Virus genome (UHGV): UHGV-1325350
DNA length: 12,822 nucleotides
Strand: one strand, 5' to 3'
Source of the DNA: a virus
Each line of letters starts with the position of its first letter. The first letter of the stretch is position 1. Below, piece after piece: positions 1 to 11,786 of this stretch. Under the pieces are notes generated by a model. The model was not told the DNA's origin. It ran no database searches and saw only the letters and a program-made list of their open reading frames with translations. The translations under genes were made by a program, and so were the position numbers.

Positions 1-1
1 C

Positions 2-595
2 GATCGGGCATACAGCATTGTGTGGGCAAGCATGACTAGTGGTGATTCACGCATATTGCTCACTTCAATTCCGTCACCAGAGGAAATAGGCTTTTTTTAT
101 GATTCACATCATGGACGTGCTTTAGCTGAAGATAATCCGAGTGGTGTATATAAAGCCATTAAGCTGAGTGCGGAGGATTCACCATTTATTACCCAAGAAT
201 ATCTTGATCATTTTGCCGAAAGGTATGGCGGGCGAAATAGTGATGACTATCGTCGTATGATTCTTGGTGAGTTCCCTGGTATTAGGGAGGCTGTTCTTGA
301 ATCAGATATGCCGAAGACAATGCGCTTTTCGATGCCTGATGGTAGTGAATGGACAATGCCATTACGAGTGATAGCCCGGCATCATGCGCAGCACCACGCC
401 AAAAAACATGGCGTCACGACATTAGAATGGTTGAAATCGCACACTATTCCACTCTTCACTGCAGATCACAATGCTATCGTTGAGTGGGCAAAAACAATTC
501 CGTGGGAGCATGTCGCTGAATATGCTCACATGCTAAAACCGCCGAAAGACAGGCACGAAATTAGCTGGCTGACAGCCGAAAAAATCATTGAATGA
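2..595 (+). CDS. 5'-truncated CDS (C-terminal about 198 codons in window); hypothetical phage protein, product not recognised
   Basis: Frame is open from window position 2 with no stop before the TGA ending at 595, so the gene most likely continues upstream of the window. Followed by a GC-rich hairpin plus T-run terminator at 603-634. Convergent with the minus-strand operon. No integrase R-H-R-Y motif seen. Confidence 0.55.
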   Translation, partial: DRAYSIVWASMTSGDSRILLTSIPSPEEIGFFYDSHHGRALAEDNPSGVYKAIKLSAEDSPFITQEYLDHFAERYGGRNSDDYRRMILGEFPGIREAVLESDMPKTMRFSMPDGSEWTMPLRVIARHHAQHHAKKHGVTTLEWLKSHTIPLFTADHNAIVEWAKTIPWEHVAEYAHMLKPPKDRHEISWLTAEKIIE

Positions 596-602
596 TATCA
601 AC

Positions 603-634
603 AAAAAGCCCGCCAGGTCTGGCGGGCTTCTTTA
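603..634. terminator. Bidirectional rho-independent terminator between convergent genes
   Basis: Stem GCCCGCC (608-614) / GGCGGGC (621-627) with 6-nt loop. Flanked by AAAAA on the left (U-run for the minus-strand transcript) and TTCTTTAT on the right (U-rich for the plus-strand transcript). Confidence 0.75.
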
Positions 635-640
635 TGCGCC

Positions 641-1030
641 TTAAATCACAGGTCTATAATCAAACTCCCCACTTCGGGCATCATTAATGACATGAGTGAT
701 CACACCAAACACAGCATTACTGCCCGTGCATCCATCGTCATCTACTGGTAACGCCTCTTTCTTCCCGGTGCTTAAATCCTCCAGGTGCTGGCGCGGATAC
801 TTCCTGTATCTCTTTATGCGATATTCACCCTCCATAGCGCATATAAGCAGTGAACCATCAACCGGAGTAAGTGAGGAATCAACCACCAGCAAAGCACCTT
901 GCAATATTCCCTCACGGTGATGGCTGTCTGCCGCCCGCATGAAGTAGGTCGCGGAAGGATGTCTGATTAGTTGCTGATCAAGAGAAATGCGGCTCTCTGC
1001 ATAATCCGCCGCAGGAGAAGGGAAGCCCAT
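641..1030 (-). CDS. umuD: UmuD'-like SOS mutagenesis protein (peptidase S24 fold), pre-processed form resembling phage P1 HumD
   Basis: 129 aa. Starts MGFPSPAADY, which corresponds to the first residues of cleaved UmuD' (UmuD cleaves at Cys24-Gly25 before GFPSPAADY). Retains the candidate Ser (AADSHH) and Lys (RIKRYRK) dyad positions and a C-terminal VFGVITHVI block matching UmuD VFGVVIHVV. ATG at 1028-1030 with GAGG Shine-Dalgarno. LexA box lies 19 bp upstream. Confidence 0.85.
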   Translation of the reverse strand: MGFPSPAADYAESRISLDQQLIRHPSATYFMRAADSHHREGILQGALLVVDSSLTPVDGSLLICAMEGEYRIKRYRKYPRQHLEDLSTGKKEALPVDDDGCTGSNAVFGVITHVINDARSGEFDYRPVI

Positions 1031-1048
1031 AGCGTTTTACCTCAATGA

Positions 1049-1068
1049 TACTGCTTATTCATACAGTA
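1049..1068. promoter_or_regulatory. LexA operator (SOS box) TACTGCTTATTCATACAGTA
   Basis: 20-bp site with the CTG-N10-CAG core and TACTG / CAGTA ends of the LexA consensus TACTGTATATATATACAGTA. Located immediately upstream of the UmuD'-like gene and overlapping its predicted -10. Confidence 0.8.
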
Positions 1069-1094
1069 TACATTGAAAAGGCATAGTTTGTGAA
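1065..1094 (-). promoter_or_regulatory. Predicted sigma70 promoter of the UmuD'-like gene (-35 TTCACA, 18-bp spacer, -10 TATACT on minus strand)
   Basis: Read on the minus strand: TTCACA (plus 1089-1094), 18 bp, TATACT (plus 1065-1070). The -10 overlaps the LexA box, as in classic SOS promoters. Confidence 0.5.
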
Positions 1095-1153
1095 AGCGGG
1101 GTTTGTAGGCGCGCCACGCTGGGGGCTAATCACATTTCTCCCCCATCTTGCCG

Positions 1154-1405
1154 TTATTTTTTTGGTGCATCCTCGTTCTGATACACCGGATCGCTCCCTT
1201 TTGGCAACTGGAGGCTTAACTGCCGGTAGTGCCGTAGCCGTTCCATGAAATAGGCGCGCAGATTCTCTGGTTGCTCGCGGGCTACCTGTTCAGCTATGAC
1301 AGGTATGTTCAATCGCTCTTTGTACGCCACACCGCTGGCAGCCAGATCAACGTTAACCTTATCCCGTTCTTCCTGACTTTTAGCTGCAATATTCCAGTCG
1401 CTCAT
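1154..1405 (-). CDS. Hypothetical small phage protein (83 aa)
   Basis: ATG start at 1403-1405, 2 nt after the stop of the upstream lipoprotein gene; TAA stop at 1154-1156. Hydrophilic and charged; no family recognised. Confidence 0.6.
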
Positions 1406-1407
1406 AT

Positions 1408-1674
1408 TTAAGGCTCACATTTCCAGATGGTATTCTGAACACCAGAACCGGGCGCTAGATGAGGGTTAGCGTTCGCGCTATGCTGATATACTGCTTTAGA
1501 CTTCCCATATTGCTGACAGGCTTTATCTGCGGTTTTTTGCAGGCTATCCAGGCCATACCAACCATCTGACTGTATGCTTACCTTTTCACCGTCGTTGTAT
1601 TGCACCATTGCACACCCAGATATAGCCAGTATCGCGCCGACAATAACGCTTTTCCATAAAACTCTATGCAACAT
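1408..1674 (-). CDS. Putative lipoprotein (88 aa from ATG; ORF track begins at an upstream TTG at 1680)
   Basis: N-terminus [21 protein letters not shown] has a positively charged n-region, a hydrophobic core and lipobox L-A-I-S-G-C (SPase II type). Mature part about 67 aa with two further Cys. Start assigned to the ATG at 1672-1674. Confidence 0.65.
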
Positions 1675-1679
1675 ATACA

Positions 1680-1710
1680 AAAATCCCCTCTGTGAATTGA
1701 GGGGATTTTA
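1680..1710 (-). terminator. Intrinsic terminator hairpin after the 252-aa gene (probably bidirectional)
   Basis: AAAATCCCCTC (1680-1690) / GAGGGGATTTT (1699-1709) with 8-nt loop. On the minus-strand transcript the stem is followed by UUUUUGU. Sits 10 nt after the stop at 1720 and directly upstream of the lipoprotein start, so the stem also contains that gene's only SD-like element (GAGGGG). Confidence 0.7.
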
Positions 1711-3650: not shown

Positions 3651-3924
3651 TGATATTAACCTTTATCGCAAATACCTTAACCGGATTCTCTCCAAAGTGC
3701 GGATGTGTAATTGTCTTTATTTCATACCCTTCATACGGGACGTCTATTCTGCGACTGGAATCGTCGCGCTTCGGATATCCCTTTGTGATAATCAGTCGGT
3801 CATATTCCCGGAACATGATTCGCTTATTCCAGTAGCCATTACACAAGCGATACTCTTCCGTTTTCTCTCCGCGAATCATGGCATCGAAGTATTCACCTTT
3901 GACGGCAAGTTGCAGGTTAGCCAT
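3643..3924 (-). CDS. ASCH domain protein (PUA-like fold), 93 aa from ATG 3922-3924 (longest ORF extends to 3945)
   Basis: Contains the ASCH signature GxKxxExR (IRGEKTEEYR) near the N-terminus. Internal ATG has a GGAGGTGAGG Shine-Dalgarno and overlaps the upstream TAA by 1 nt (TAATG). Confidence 0.6.
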   Translation of the reverse strand: MANLQLAVKGEYFDAMIRGEKTEEYRLCNGYWNKRIMFREYDRLIITKGYPKRDDSSRRIDVPYEGYEIKTITHPHFGENPVKVFAIKVNING

Positions 3925-4184
3925 TACCTCACCTCCAGTCTCCATACCGCCTGACCAATCCGGCTGGCATGGGTATCTTTAGATACTGTTCCGTCTTTAG
4001 CCAGCTCCATAAGAATTTTGCGCAAATCTGCCGAGCGCCATTCTTCATCAGGAAATTCCTTCTCCATTGCCAACCGCAGATTCCAGGTTGCTATCGTGAA
4101 TGGATATTCCCCGCCGAGAGCTTTCTCTTGCAGGGCCGCACGGGAACGTATCACCTGCAAAACCTTCTCTTTTACATCCATCAT
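3924..4184 (-). CDS. Hypothetical phage protein (86 aa from ATG 4182-4184; longest ORF extends to 4256)
   Basis: AGGAGG Shine-Dalgarno 4 nt upstream of tandem ATG codons. The first ATG overlaps the TGA of the DUF551 gene (ATGA). Confidence 0.6.
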   Translation of the reverse strand: MMDVKEKVLQVIRSRAALQEKALGGEYPFTIATWNLRLAMEKEFPDEEWRSADLRKILMELAKDGTVSKDTHASRIGQAVWRLEVR

Positions 4185-4948
4185 TTTGCCTCCTGCGGCG
4201 GTTCTGGTAGCGGCATCCAGTGTGATGGTATCCACGACGCACCAGGTATTACCCACCCATCATTAGCGTCAGGATGCCCCGGGATGTAAGTCGCCCATTT
4301 CATTCGCCAGTCACCTTTCCTGTCAAACTCCCTGGCAACAAGAACGGCTGTTTTGGTATCCGGCATTCGCTCACTACAGCTTATCCAACTATCCGGAATT
4401 ACCGGATAGTTGCGCATTGCGACCTTTAATGCCTCATAGAAGCAACCTTTCAGATTGTTGAACTGACGCCCATTTAGCGGGCCGTGTTCAGTCAGCATGT
4501 TGTGTAATTTCCATGCCGCGTCGTTTACTTCGTTGGATGACAGGGGAGGCAACTTGTAAGTTTGGCTTACAGGTTCGGCACCATGAAGCATGGCAGCACG
4601 GCAGGCGTTCCAGCCAGCTGTTCGCCCAAGCGAGTAAACTTCAGATGGCTCAAGATAATCAATGTCATGCCCGTCCTCATCGTCGTTCTCAGGTAATGCA
4701 GCAGGTACTACTGGTACTGGAGGGGCGGCATAAACAGGAATAACGTCCGCTTGCTCTTTATTGCTTTCATCCGTTAAAGCCCAGAATAATTTCCCGGCCG
4801 GATGTTTGAAAATATAAGCAACTGGATCTGCTTCCAGCGATGCCAGTGCAATTTCATAAGCACGGCGCTCAATATTGTCTCGAACGTCCAAGCTGCCTAT
4901 GCGCTCTTTGATTTCTTTAATCAGTTCTTTGTCGGTGAAAGTGGTCAT
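4181..4948 (-). CDS. DUF551 domain-containing phage protein (255 aa)
   Basis: C-terminal region WISCSERMPD...VLV...W...SHWMPLPEPP matches the remembered DUF551 signature (HWMPLPEPP-type ending). AGGAG Shine-Dalgarno at 7 nt. Pro/Ala-rich linker in the middle. Confidence 0.6.
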   Translation of the reverse strand: MTTFTDKELIKEIKERIGSLDVRDNIERRAYEIALASLEADPVAYIFKHPAGKLFWALTDESNKEQADVIPVYAAPPVPVVPAALPENDDEDGHDIDYLEPSEVYSLGRTAGWNACRAAMLHGAEPVSQTYKLPPLSSNEVNDAAWKLHNMLTEHGPLNGRQFNNLKGCFYEALKVAMRNYPVIPDSWISCSERMPDTKTAVLVAREFDRKGDWRMKWATYIPGHPDANDGWVIPGASWIPSHWMPLPEPPQEAK

Positions 4949-4949
4949 G

Positions 4950-5702
4950 TCACTCTCCTTTGATGCGAATGCCAGCGTCAGACATCATATGCAGATACTC
5001 AACTGCATCCTGAACCCATTGACCGCCAATCCCGTAATAGCGATGCGTAATGATGTCGATAGTTACTAACGGGTCTTGTTCGATTAACTTCCGCAGAAAC
5101 TCTTCCAGGTCACCAGTGCAGTGCTTGATGACAGGAGTTTTCCCAGGATGGCGAACAACAAGAAACTGATTTCCGACTTCACGGACTTCGTTGCTTTTCA
5201 GTTCTGCAATGCGCTTCTCTGAGGCTTCCAGCTTCTCTCGCATATCGTCAACGTACTCGACCAGAGAACCGCCAGCAGGAATTTCGCACTCCTCGACCAG
5301 TTGGAAGTAGATATCAGCTGCGGCCCGTGTGTTGCTATGCCTAGCGTCGCCCATCTCACCTTCACGAAGAGCATCGCGTTCGGCGGTAAGATTGGCTATT
5401 TTGCTGTCTTTGCCTTCCAGCTCAACGCGCAGCCTCCCAACCGTAAGCGCAATATCCTCGTTCTCCTGGTCGCGGCGTTTGATGTATTGCAGGTTTCTTT
5501 CCCGTTCATCCAGCAGCGTCAGCACGGTTTCTGGTCCGGTCAGAAATTTGAAGGCGTTGAGCGCATCAATATCCACACCATAATCTTTAAGTTCCTGTTC
5601 ACTTAACAAATCATCATCAGCTGGCAACATTAACAGGCGTTCCATTGCTGGAATTGCACGTTCCGCCGCCTCACGCAGTGCCTGGTAATTAATTTTGCTC
5701 AC
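4950..5702 (-). CDS. Ead/Ea22-like coiled-coil protein, paralog A (250 aa, GTG start)
   Basis: GTG at 5700-5702 with GGAGG at 7 nt. Central heptad-like segments RLRVELEGKD and KRIAELKSNE shared with the paralogs at 8276-8986 and 9306-10007. A 17-nt stretch (5199-5215) is identical to 8636-8652. Confidence 0.6.
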   Translation of the reverse strand: MSKINYQALREAAERAIPAMERLLMLPADDDLLSEQELKDYGVDIDALNAFKFLTGPETVLTLLDERERNLQYIKRRDQENEDIALTVGRLRVELEGKDSKIANLTAERDALREGEMGDARHSNTRAAADIYFQLVEECEIPAGGSLVEYVDDMREKLEASEKRIAELKSNEVREVGNQFLVVRHPGKTPVIKHCTGDLEEFLRKLIEQDPLVTIDIITHRYYGIGGQWVQDAVEYLHMMSDAGIRIKGE

Positions 5703-5988
5703 TGGTTGCCTCCGCTTTCCACGTTTTCAGACTTTCACCACAGAACGGGCAAAATGAAACCCGAATCGGCGATTTAGAAAACTCGCCTGACCGAAGCATG
5801 ATCAGATCTTGTGAATGAATTAATTCATGGTTATAGATTTTGTATTTCAGCAGACCTTTTCGCGTCGTGTATTCAGCATCCTGCTCCAGAGATTGTGCCA
5901 GCGCCGCGCACGGTTCTATTTTTCTGTCATTAATCAAACAAGTGGAGATTCTGCACTTTGCAGCTCCGTCACCGTTACCTTGACTCAT
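5689..5988 (-). CDS. Small putative zinc-ribbon protein (99 aa)
   Basis: Cys pairs C-x4-C (CRISTC) and C-x2-C (CPFCGE). ATG at 5986-5988. Confidence 0.5.
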   Translation of the reverse strand: MSQGNGDGAAKCRISTCLINDRKIEPCAALAQSLEQDAEYTTRKGLLKYKIYNHELIHSQDLIMLRSGEFSKSPIRVSFCPFCGESLKTWKAEATSEQN

Positions 5989-11207: not shown

Positions 11208-11786
11208 ATGCAGAGACAGAGTTATTGGGAGAAACAGAGACAAAAAGCCATGCAAAAACTGGCTGATCCGGAATGGCGGGAAGAGCAAAGGGCAAAACGT
11301 CTTCAGCAGGCTCAACGCCAGCAGCAACGCGCAAGGGAAAAAGCCGCATCGCCTGAATATCGTCAAAAGAAACTTGAAAAAGTGAGGCAAAATGAACAGC
11401 GCAGAAGAGAGAGGGCGGCGTCAGCCCTCCCCAAAAAAACGCGCCCGTCACGCGGATTAAAAGGGAGATCACTCACAGCAGAAGAGCGCCGGATACAGGA
11501 CGCTATAGGCAAACTCCCCTGTATTGCCTGCCATCTTCACGGGAAGCATAGCCCTGTCGTATCTCTCCACCACATATTTGGCAGAACGGCTAAAGATGCC
11601 CATAAATACGTTCTCCCTTTGTGTAAATGGCACCACCAGCACGCAGCGCCAGCAGAGATCCGCGAACAATATCCCTGGTTGGTTCCTGTTCATGCTGATG
11701 GAAAAATAGGCGGGAAAGCAGATTTTATACGGCACAATGCCGAAGAGATGACGCTCTATCAGACGGTGCAAGAAATGGTGAATTAA
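11208..11786 (+). CDS. ref: Ref-like recombination enhancement function protein: HNH-type nuclease with basic low-complexity N-terminal half (phage P1 Ref-like), 192 aa
   Basis: N-terminal about 95 residues are K/R/Q/E-rich and look disordered. C-terminal half carries a His-Me finger/HNH-like motif (CIACHLHGKH...SLHHIFGR...LPLCKWHHQH). AAGAGG Shine-Dalgarno 8 nt upstream of the ATG. Architecture matches what is known for P1 Ref. Confidence 0.6.
   Translation: MQRQSYWEKQRQKAMQKLADPEWREEQRAKRLQQAQRQQQRAREKAASPEYRQKKLEKVRQNEQRRRERAASALPKKTRPSRGLKGRSLTAEERRIQDAIGKLPCIACHLHGKHSPVVSLHHIFGRTAKDAHKYVLPLCKWHHQHAAPAEIREQYPWLVPVHADGKIGGKADFIRHNAEEMTLYQTVQEMVN

What the first reader, a model, noticed from the sequence alone, without database searches (positions are those of the whole stretch)
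641..1094. LexA-controlled, pre-cleaved UmuD' homolog with no UmuC partner
The protein begins at the position equivalent to Gly25 of UmuD, so it is made as the already-activated UmuD' form and bypasses RecA-mediated self-cleavage. The Ser and Lys dyad positions are nevertheless retained. It has its own promoter with a near-consensus LexA box (1049-1068) overlapping the -10, and sits at the distal end of the operon next to a bidirectional terminator. No umuC-like gene is in the window. This matches the logic of phage P1 HumD: a phage supplying UmuD' to host UmuC during the SOS response.
Basis: partly seen in the sequence, partly recalled or inferred. Interest (0 to 1): 0.6.

Follow-up and report, generated by a model that had tools for sequence, protein, structure and literature searches.

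The report
Phage P1 humD gene, already known

Summary
ORF 641-1030 (- strand, 129 aa) is 95% identical to phage P1 HumD. It matches NCBI's HumD equivalog model end to end (209 bits, cutoff 120). It starts at Met-Gly, where Gly is UmuD Gly25, and an in-frame TAA two codons upstream rules out a longer cleavable form. Ser36 and Lys73 align with UmuD Ser60 and Lys97. The 20-bp palindrome at 1049-1068 sits where the P1 record annotates a LexA binding site, and it overlaps a promoter-like -10 (TATACT). A strong hairpin at 603-632 separates humD from a convergent gene. No umuC exists in the window or anywhere in the closest complete plasmid, pTB423. The window belongs to a D6-type, P1-related phage-plasmid, and about 13% of complete E. 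coli genomes carry DNA matching the 1.7 kb that holds this gene. HumD was characterised in 1999 as a functional UmuD' homologue. Small additions: the Ser/Lys pair is not conserved in more distant phage orphans; all orphans share a C-terminal tail that UmuD lacks; and this window's LexA box carries a substitution not seen in any relative compared. Already known, low interest.

The parts
641..1030 (-). humD coding sequence (129 aa, stop TAA at 643-641), a pre-truncated UmuD' homologue. Ser36 codon is 925-923 and Lys73 codon is 814-812.
   Evidence: ORF list. 95% aa identity to P1 HumD. NCBIfam NF051876 HumD equivalog, 209.4 bits against a cutoff of 120, covering 1-129 of 129. Pfam Peptidase_S24. 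PDB UmuD' 1UMU, E = 6e-23. dN/dS of 0.06-0.11 against P1, D6 and 813R1.
1037..1043 (-). Shine-Dalgarno GAGG (1043-1040) followed by the in-frame stop TAA (1039-1037) that fixes the start codon at 1030-1028.
   Evidence: Sequence and translation. The segment is invariant in pTB423, D6, P1 and 813R1.
1049..1068 (-). LexA (SOS) box TACTGTATGAATAAGCAGTA. The G at 1054 replaces the A found in relatives.
   Evidence: Pattern search, only site in the window, 0.14 expected. Aligned with the LexA site annotated in the P1 record. A CTG-N10-CAG box lies 28-64 nt upstream of the start in N15, phiKO2, HK639, pAEv1818 and yong1 orphans and in E. coli umuDC. phiKO2 has its site annotated as a lexA binding site.
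1065..1094 (-). Sigma-70-like promoter: -35 TTCACA (1094-1089), 18-nt spacer, -10 TATACT (1070-1065). The -10 overlaps the LexA box by 4 nt.
   Evidence: Consensus scan, 10 of 12 matches. Conserved in pTB423, D6 and 813R1. P1 has different sequence upstream of the -10 region. No experimental support is available here.
603..632 (.). GC-rich hairpin (13 pairs, 4-nt loop) between the convergent stop codons at 595 and 641, flanked by an A-run and a T-run. It is a plausible bidirectional intrinsic terminator.
   Evidence: RNA fold of -25.6 kcal/mol, z = -4.15. Sequence. Not listed by the consensus terminator scan.
1154..1405 (-). hot, a homologue of the DNA polymerase III theta subunit. It is the upstream neighbour on the same strand (context, not part of humD).
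   Evidence: Pfam DNA_pol3_theta, 116 bits. NCBIfam theta subfamily. Same hot-humD neighbourhood as in P1 and D6.

Best explanation
Window 641-1030 (- strand) is the humD gene of a D6-type, P1-related phage-plasmid. It encodes a 129-aa protein made directly in the UmuD' form, so it needs no RecA-stimulated self-cleavage. Its likely mechanism is as follows. In an undamaged lysogen, host LexA binds the 20-bp box at 1049-1068, which overlaps the -10 of the promoter just upstream, and keeps expression low. After DNA damage LexA is cleaved and HumD is made. HumD dimerises and joins the host's own UmuC, which is also SOS-induced, to form an active polymerase V-like translesion enzyme. This skips the slow UmuD-to-UmuD' step. 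The hairpin at 603-632 ends the transcript.

Shown here: orthology to HumD, the N-terminal truncation, the operator and promoter sequences and their conservation, absence of umuC, and purifying selection.

Taken from the literature on P1 HumD: functional substitution for UmuD' in E. coli.

Inferred: LexA control and promoter use in this particular element, and the benefit to the phage.
For: Orthology: 92.7% nucleotide and 95% amino-acid identity to P1 humD. The HumD equivalog model is matched over its full length at 209 bits against a cutoff of 120. RefSeq annotates near-identical copies as 'HumD family translesion DNA polymerase'.

Truncation: the start is at the Gly25 equivalent, with a stop two codons upstream.

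Fold family: UmuD' crystal and NMR structures are the top PDB matches, E = 6e-23.

Operator: exact pattern match, unique in the window. It lies at the site annotated as a LexA binding site in P1. Its position is conserved in front of eight orphan homologues down to 43% aa identity, and in front of E. coli umuDC.

Promoter: the -10 overlaps the box.

No UmuC: none in the window and none in the whole 91.8-kb plasmid pTB423, whose humD coding sequence is identical.

Selection: dN/dS of 0.06-0.11.

[quoted passage not shown] The title of McLenigan et al. 1999, J Bacteriol 181:7005, as cited in PMC4713147, states that HumD is a functional UmuD' homologue that facilitates SOS mutagenesis.
Against: No experiment exists on this particular element. 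LexA binding at the humD site is, as far as I could read, a sequence prediction in the P1 and phiKO2 records, not a demonstrated footprint. This window's box has GCAG instead of the ACAG found in all compared relatives, which may weaken repression. The promoter is a consensus match only, and the scan found no more such sites than shuffled sequence gives. The P1 annotators placed PhumD elsewhere, about 480 bp upstream inside lxr. Read-through from hot is not excluded. humD is dispensable for P1 lytic growth in a CRISPRi screen (PMC10695390), so the benefit to the phage is unproven. The two primary papers (PMC94175, PMC523184) are not in the held library, so I could not read them.
Confidence: 0.88

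Rival explanations
1. HumD is mainly expressed by read-through from the upstream leftward genes (hot and beyond) during lytic growth. On this view the LexA box contributes little, and the gene serves phage replication rather than the lysogen's SOS response.
For: I saw no terminator in the 123-bp hot-humD gap. A terminator-like site lies further upstream at 1709-1680. P1 hot has a late promoter. The proximal promoter match is no better than chance expectation for the region scanned. This window's operator carries a weakening substitution.
Against: The LexA box is conserved in position in front of orphan homologues that sit in entirely different neighbourhoods: after tail-fibre genes in N15, HK639, pAEv1818 and yong1, and divergent from a dinI homologue in phiKO2. 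That argues the operator is the conserved control element. Read-through and LexA control are not mutually exclusive.
Confidence: 0.15
2. HumD keeps the Ser-Lys dyad because it is an active S24 protease working in trans. For example, it might cleave host UmuD (or another S24 substrate) to speed up polymerase V activation, rather than simply replacing UmuD'.
For: Ser36 and Lys73 are retained in the window, P1, D6 and 813R1 proteins. From my own recollection, not checked here: intermolecular cleavage between UmuD protomers has been described.
Against: More distant pre-truncated orphans have lost the dyad. N15 and phiKO2 have Ser to Thr. HK639 has Ser to Thr and Lys to Met. pAEv1818 has no Ser and Lys to Arg. 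yong1 has Ser to Tyr and Lys to Arg. A phage with a complete umuDC operon keeps GDSM and Lys. The motif here is ADSH rather than GDSM. So catalysis is not a family-wide requirement.
Confidence: 0.05
3. The ORF is a decaying remnant of a former umuDC operon that lost its 5' end and its umuC, and has no function.
For: It is an orphan and is N-terminally shorter than UmuD. It is non-essential in P1 (PMC10695390).
Against: dN/dS is 0.06-0.11 against P1, D6 and 813R1. The start codon, SD and operator are invariant. The same architecture recurs in many phages. Matching DNA occurs in 703 of 5426 complete E. coli genomes. The literature reports function for the P1 protein.
Confidence: 0.02

Closest known systems
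Bacteriophage P1 HumD (YP_006569.1; McLenigan et al. 1999, J Bacteriol 181:7005; P1 genome annotation NC_005856)
   Same: 95% amino-acid identity and the same 129-aa length. Same Met-Gly start at UmuD Gly25, same Ser and Lys, same C-terminal extension. The LexA box lies at the same distance from the start (-38 versus -39). hot lies upstream on the same strand, and there is no umuC.
   Different: P1 has the divergent gene lxr (573 bp) inserted between hot and humD, and phd-doc immediately downstream. Here hot and humD are 123 bp apart and the downstream neighbour is a convergent gene of unknown function behind a hairpin. The sequence upstream of the -10 differs from P1. The tail reads EFDYRPVI rather than EFDDCPVI. 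The LexA box has GCAG rather than ACAG.
humD of phage D6 and D6-type phage-plasmids such as E. coli pTB423 (NZ_CP034790)
   Same: pTB423 has an identical humD coding sequence and the same flanking genes, with 96% identity over 86% of the window. D6 HumD is 94% identical and also lacks lxr.
   Different: Three substitutions in the 136-bp upstream region relative to pTB423, one of them in the LexA box. D6 has a truncated hot, and an unnamed gene (orf109) followed by phd-doc downstream of humD.
Orphan UmuD' homologues of other temperate phages: N15 gp26, phiKO2 Gp23, HK639 UmuD
   Same: Same pre-truncated start (MGFPSP), the same C-terminal ...GEFDDCPV(I/M/L) tail, a LexA box upstream, no umuC next to the gene in the roughly 3.4-kb stretches fetched, and 62-67% identity.
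   Different: Different genomic neighbourhoods (after tail genes, next to sopAB or integrase). The catalytic Ser is replaced by Thr, and in HK639 Lys is also replaced by Met.
E. coli UmuD / UmuD' (polymerase V accessory subunit; PDB 1UMU, 1I4V, 1AY9, 8GMT)
   Same: Same S24 fold family with about 43-45% identity over UmuD residues 25-139. Ser60 and Lys97 equivalents are present. A very similar LexA box lies 39 nt upstream of the start.
   Different: UmuD is made with a 24-residue N-terminal tail that must be removed at Cys24-Gly25, and it is co-transcribed with umuC. HumD lacks the tail and the partner gene, and carries about 10 extra C-terminal residues. It scores below the cutoff of the NCBIfam 'autoproteolytic subunit' model (86.8 against 110).

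Membership tests
HumD family (NCBIfam NF051876, equivalog) | Full-length match to the family model above the curated cutoff | tested here: met
   209.4 bits against a cutoff of 120, residues 1-129 on profile 1-129 of 129, E = 1.4e-62.
HumD family (NCBIfam NF051876, equivalog) | Translation starts at the residue equivalent to UmuD Gly25, with no cleavable N-terminal tail | tested here: met
   Met1-Gly2 aligns to Gly25. An in-frame TAA lies two codons upstream.
HumD family (NCBIfam NF051876, equivalog) | Not in an operon with a umuC-like gene | tested here: met
   No IMS or UmuC domain in 25 window ORFs. tblastn with UmuC gave no hit in the window or in the whole of pTB423. pTB423's annotation lists no such gene.
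HumD family (NCBIfam NF051876, equivalog) | Functionally replaces UmuD': restores SOS mutagenesis with host UmuC. My recollection, which I could not check, is that HumD also dimerises and binds UmuC and RecA filaments. | not testable with these tools
   Known for the 95%-identical P1 protein, from the title of McLenigan et al. 1999 (cited in PMC4713147) and from PMC7092418. The paper itself could not be read.
Peptidase S24 / autoproteolytic UmuD (Pfam PF00717; NCBIfam NF007621) | S24 domain present with the Ser-Lys catalytic dyad | tested here: met
   PF00717 at 35.1 bits against 23.3. Ser36 and Lys73 align to Ser60 and Lys97.
Peptidase S24 / autoproteolytic UmuD (Pfam PF00717; NCBIfam NF007621) | Self-cleavage site (Cys/Ala-Gly) preceded by an N-terminal segment that is removed | tested here: not met
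   The protein begins at the Gly, so there is nothing to cleave. NF007621 scores 86.8, below its cutoff of 110.
LexA-regulated (SOS) gene of Enterobacteria | A 20-bp LexA box of the type TACTGTATATATATACAGTA (CTGT-N8-ACAG) in the promoter region | tested here: met
   TACTGTATGAATAAGCAGTA at 1068-1049. CTG-N10-CAG is intact, 16 of 20 match the consensus, and one half-site reads GCAG. It overlaps the predicted -10. Its position is conserved in homologous loci.
LexA-regulated (SOS) gene of Enterobacteria | LexA binding and damage-inducible transcription demonstrated | not testable with these tools
   Only record annotations and a statement in PMC9603915 are available. There is no binding or expression data for this element.

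The most novel reading that the evidence does not exclude
The phage orphan UmuD' proteins (HumD, N15 gp26, phiKO2 Gp23 and others) may form a distinct clade that has given up protease chemistry, since the Ser/Lys pair decays outside the P1 group. In exchange the clade has gained a conserved acidic C-terminal tail with a hydrophobic end, ...GEFDDCPV(I/M/L)-COOH. This tail is absent from UmuD and from phage-borne full umuDC operons. From my own recollection, it resembles the SSB C-terminal tip (DFDDDIPF). It could be a docking peptide that ties HumD to a replisome or repair partner other than UmuC. That might act together with the neighbouring theta homologue Hot, giving HumD a role beyond simply replacing UmuD'. 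Separately, this window's substitution in the LexA box, unseen in any compared relative, might make HumD partly constitutive in this element.
Probability: 0.1. Interest if true: 0.4.

Novelty: already known. Interest (0 to 1): 0.08.

Why it matters
It matters little as a discovery. humD has been known since the 1990s, was shown to substitute for UmuD' in 1999, and now has its own NCBI family model. DNA matching the 1.7 kb that holds it occurs on P1- and D6-type phage-plasmids in about 13% of complete E. coli genomes. Its general relevance is that a very common mobile element can hand its host a ready-activated polymerase V subunit. That could raise damage-induced mutagenesis, and so possibly the evolution of antibiotic resistance, in lysogens. 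That idea is already in the literature and this window adds nothing to it.

Tried and rejected
1. Upstream in-frame extension encoding a cleavable tail. This is rejected: TAA lies two codons before the ATG, and a second stop lies further up. A tblastn alignment of UmuD against D6 appeared to extend to UmuD residue 5, but it runs through the same two stop codons and adds only about 1 bit. It is spurious.

2. A umuC hidden elsewhere. None was found in the window or in the closest complete plasmid.

3. A divergent LexA-controlled partner gene like P1 lxr or phiKO2 dinI. It is absent here. Only 85 bp separate the box from the end of hot, and the 52-aa ORF at 1090..1248 (+) overlaps hot in antisense.

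4. Other LexA boxes in the window. There are none beyond chance.

5. Structured RNAs. There were no Rfam matches.

6. Reading the primary papers (McLenigan 1999, PMC94175; Lobocka 2004, PMC523184). Neither is held, so statements about HumD biochemistry rest on citing papers and my own recollection.

7. A heterology-index score for the LexA box. I did not compute it because I do not have the published matrix, and used pattern statistics and phylogenetic conservation instead.

8. The large protein-database searches and structure prediction were deliberately not run. Orthology was already unambiguous from cheaper tools.

Full report
**What is at the coordinates**

The only long ORF in 641-1094 is 641..1030 on the - strand, 129 aa with an ATG start. 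Read on the - strand, the upstream frame is ...ILYE*AVSLR*NAMGFPSP. A TAA at 1039-1037 lies two codons before the ATG at 1030-1028, and a GAGG Shine-Dalgarno lies at 1043-1040. The protein therefore cannot be longer at its N-terminus.

**What the protein is**

- Pfam assigns it to Peptidase_S24 (35.1 bits, cutoff 23.3).
- The best solved structures are E. coli UmuD' and UmuD (1UMU E = 6e-23, 1I4V, 8GMT, 1AY9).
- Gly2 aligns with UmuD Gly25, the residue that becomes the N-terminus of UmuD' after cleavage. Ser36 aligns with Ser60 and Lys73 with Lys97 (UmuD sequence verified from MG1655).
- Megablast against phage genomes finds P1 humD at 92.7% nucleotide identity, plus P7, D6, RCS47, SJ46 and others.
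- At protein level it is 95% identical to P1 HumD, 94% to D6 and 95% to vB_EcoM-813R1.
- NCBI's curated equivalog model NF051876, 'HumD family translesion DNA polymerase', matches end to end at 209.4 bits against a cutoff of 120. The model for the autoproteolytic UmuD subunit stays below its cutoff (86.8 against 110).
- RefSeq annotates near-identical copies under the HumD name. Matching DNA (query: window 1-1700) is found in 703 of 5426 complete E. coli genomes, almost always on plasmids.
- dN/dS against P1, D6 and 813R1 is 0.06-0.11, so the gene is under purifying selection.

**Where the window comes from**

The whole 12.8 kb is 96% identical over 86% of its length to the 91.8-kb non-mobilizable E. 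coli plasmid pTB423. It is similar to many other roughly 90-kb plasmids. Among phages it is closest to D6, a P1 relative. pTB423 encodes head, tail, portal, pacase and lytic-replication proteins together with plasmid replication and partition genes. It is therefore a phage-plasmid. The gene order around humD is hot (theta-subunit homologue, 1154-1405, - strand) followed by humD, as in P1 and D6.

**The operator and promoter**

On the - strand, 1068-1049 reads TACTGTATGAATAAGCAGTA.

- It matches TACTGTAT-N7-CAGTA exactly. It is the only site in the window within two mismatches of that pattern, with 0.14 expected from shuffles. A looser CTGT-N8-ACAG search finds nothing else above chance.
- In an alignment of the upstream regions, the box lines up with the site that the P1 record annotates as 'LexA binding site in the regulatory region of lxr and humD'.
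- A CTG-N10-CAG box lies 28-64 nt upstream of the start codon in every orphan homologue I fetched: N15 gp26, phiKO2 Gp23 (annotated there as a lexA binding site), HK639, Aeromonas phage pAEv1818 and Hafnia phage yong1. It also precedes E. coli umuDC. These genes sit in unrelated neighbourhoods, so the positional conservation is good comparative evidence that the box is functional.
- A consensus scan finds -35 TTCACA (1094-1089), an 18-nt spacer and -10 TATACT (1070-1065), 10 of 12 matches. The -10 overlaps the box by four bases.
- This promoter is a prediction only. The scan found as many such sites as shuffled sequence gives. The P1 annotators placed their predicted PhumD elsewhere, inside lxr.
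- Homology to P1 begins at about the -10 region. The -35 region is shared with D6, pTB423 and 813R1 but not with P1.

**The terminator and the 'operon'**

The 45 bp between the convergent stop codons (595 on +, 641 on -) hold a 13-pair hairpin at 603-632. It has an A-run on one side and a T-run on the other. The 61-nt stretch folds at -25.6 kcal/mol, z = -4.15. A bidirectional intrinsic terminator is a fair reading, although the consensus terminator scan did not list it. humD is the last gene of a long leftward array, and I saw no terminator in the 123-bp gap after hot. A terminator-like site lies further upstream at 1709-1680. Read-through into humD therefore remains possible alongside its own promoter.

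**No UmuC**

The longest ORF in the window is 331 aa (DUF968). Pfam finds no Y-family polymerase domain in 25 ORFs. tblastn with MG1655 UmuC finds nothing in the window or in the whole of pTB423. No such gene is annotated in pTB423.

**How it most likely works**

This is inferred from orthology and from the literature on P1. LexA represses the gene in the lysogen. DNA damage removes LexA. HumD is then made directly in the active UmuD' form and pairs with host UmuC, bypassing the RecA-dependent cleavage that normally delays polymerase V activation.

[quoted passage not shown] 1999, cited in PMC4713147). I could not read it or the P1 genome paper. humD is non-essential for P1 in a CRISPRi screen (PMC10695390).

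1. The Ser/Lys pair is retained here and in P1, D6 and 813R1, but not in more distant pre-truncated orphans. N15 and phiKO2 have Thr for Ser. HK639 has Thr and Met. pAEv1818 and yong1 have lost Ser and have Arg for Lys. By contrast, phage Oslo carries a complete umuDC operon and keeps the N-terminal tail, GDSM and Lys. Retention of the dyad here is therefore probably historical, not evidence of protease activity.

2. All orphans share a C-terminal extension...INDxRxGEFDDCPV(I/M/L), which UmuD and the Oslo protein lack. In the phage tblastn table, hits whose match stops at query residue 118-121 include those annotated with an adjacent polymerase gene (Oslo and ENT39118), while orphan hits mostly run to the last residues. 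The window and pTB423 have EFDYRPVI. I have no explanation for the tail. A resemblance to the SSB C-terminal tip is only my recollection.

3. This window's LexA box has G at 1054 (- strand) where pTB423, D6, 813R1 and P1 have A. The best identity to the 136-bp upstream region among 72,556 plasmids is 135 of 136. A 55-mer centred on that base has no full-length match in those plasmids or in 20,395 E. coli records. Only four plasmids share the 28 bases on one side of it. It may be a real variant that weakens repression, or a sequencing error.

4. P1 has lxr inserted divergently between hot and humD and has phd-doc downstream. Both are absent here.

**Verdict**

The feature is the already characterised humD gene in a common phage-plasmid lineage. 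Novelty: already known. Interest: low.

Noticed in passing
window 641-682 (- strand; last ~14 codons of humD); also L001, L004, L008-L012: All phage orphan UmuD' homologues compared share a C-terminal extension, ...INDxRxGEFDDCPV(I/M/L)-COOH. It is absent from E. coli UmuD and from the UmuD of phage Oslo, which has a full umuDC operon. The window and pTB423 read GEFDYRPVI (DD to DY, C to R). The function is unknown. The acidic stretch with a hydrophobic end recalls the SSB C-terminal tip, but that is my recollection only.
   Followed up: partly
window 1054 (within the LexA box 1049-1068): The box reads ...AAGCAGTA, whereas pTB423, D6, 813R1 and P1 read ...A(A)ACAGTA. No full-length match to a 55-mer centred on this base exists in 72,556 plasmids or 20,395 E. 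coli records. It is either a variant of this element not seen in those collections that could loosen LexA repression, or a sequencing error.
   Followed up: partly
L008-L012 versus window residues Ser36 and Lys73: The catalytic Ser/Lys dyad is replaced in more distant pre-truncated orphans (Thr in N15 and phiKO2; Thr plus Met in HK639; no Ser plus Arg in pAEv1818 and yong1). This suggests relaxed selection on protease chemistry once the N-terminal tail is gone.
   Followed up: yes
window 1031-1153 compared with L001 3392-4144: P1 carries the 573-bp gene lxr, divergent from humD and sharing its LexA box, between hot and humD. The window, pTB423 and 813R1 have only a 95-123-bp spacer and no lxr; D6, whose hot is truncated, has 11 bp. 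Homology to P1 resumes at about the -10 and LexA box.
   Followed up: partly
window 1-595 (+ strand) and 603-632: Downstream of humD, where P1 and 813R1 have phd-doc (in D6 phd-doc follows after one intervening gene), this lineage has the 3' end of a convergent 364-aa gene of unknown function (phrog_5902). It shows a weak resemblance to a terminase large-subunit segment (phrog_2, E = 6e-7). The toxin-antitoxin module is not adjacent here.
   Followed up: no
window 1408-1674 (- strand): A small ORF between the 258-aa gene and hot encodes [21 protein letters not shown]..., a lipoprotein-type signal peptide with a lipobox. It matches phrog_7757 (unknown function, E = 5e-53) but is not listed in the PLSDB gene table for pTB423. 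A terminator-like hairpin lies just upstream at 1709-1680.
   Followed up: no
window 11208-11786 (+ strand), 1154-1405 (-) and 641-1030 (-): Three genes for proteins that act on the host replication and repair machinery sit within this 12.8-kb accessory region. They are Ref (RecA-dependent nuclease, PF16786), Hot (Pol III theta homologue) and HumD (UmuD' homologue).
   Followed up: no
window 3652-5713: This stretch (DUF551 and Ead/Ea22-like genes) is about 95% identical to Stx-converting lambdoid prophages. It shows mosaic exchange between the phage-plasmid's accessory region and lambdoid phages.
   Followed up: no
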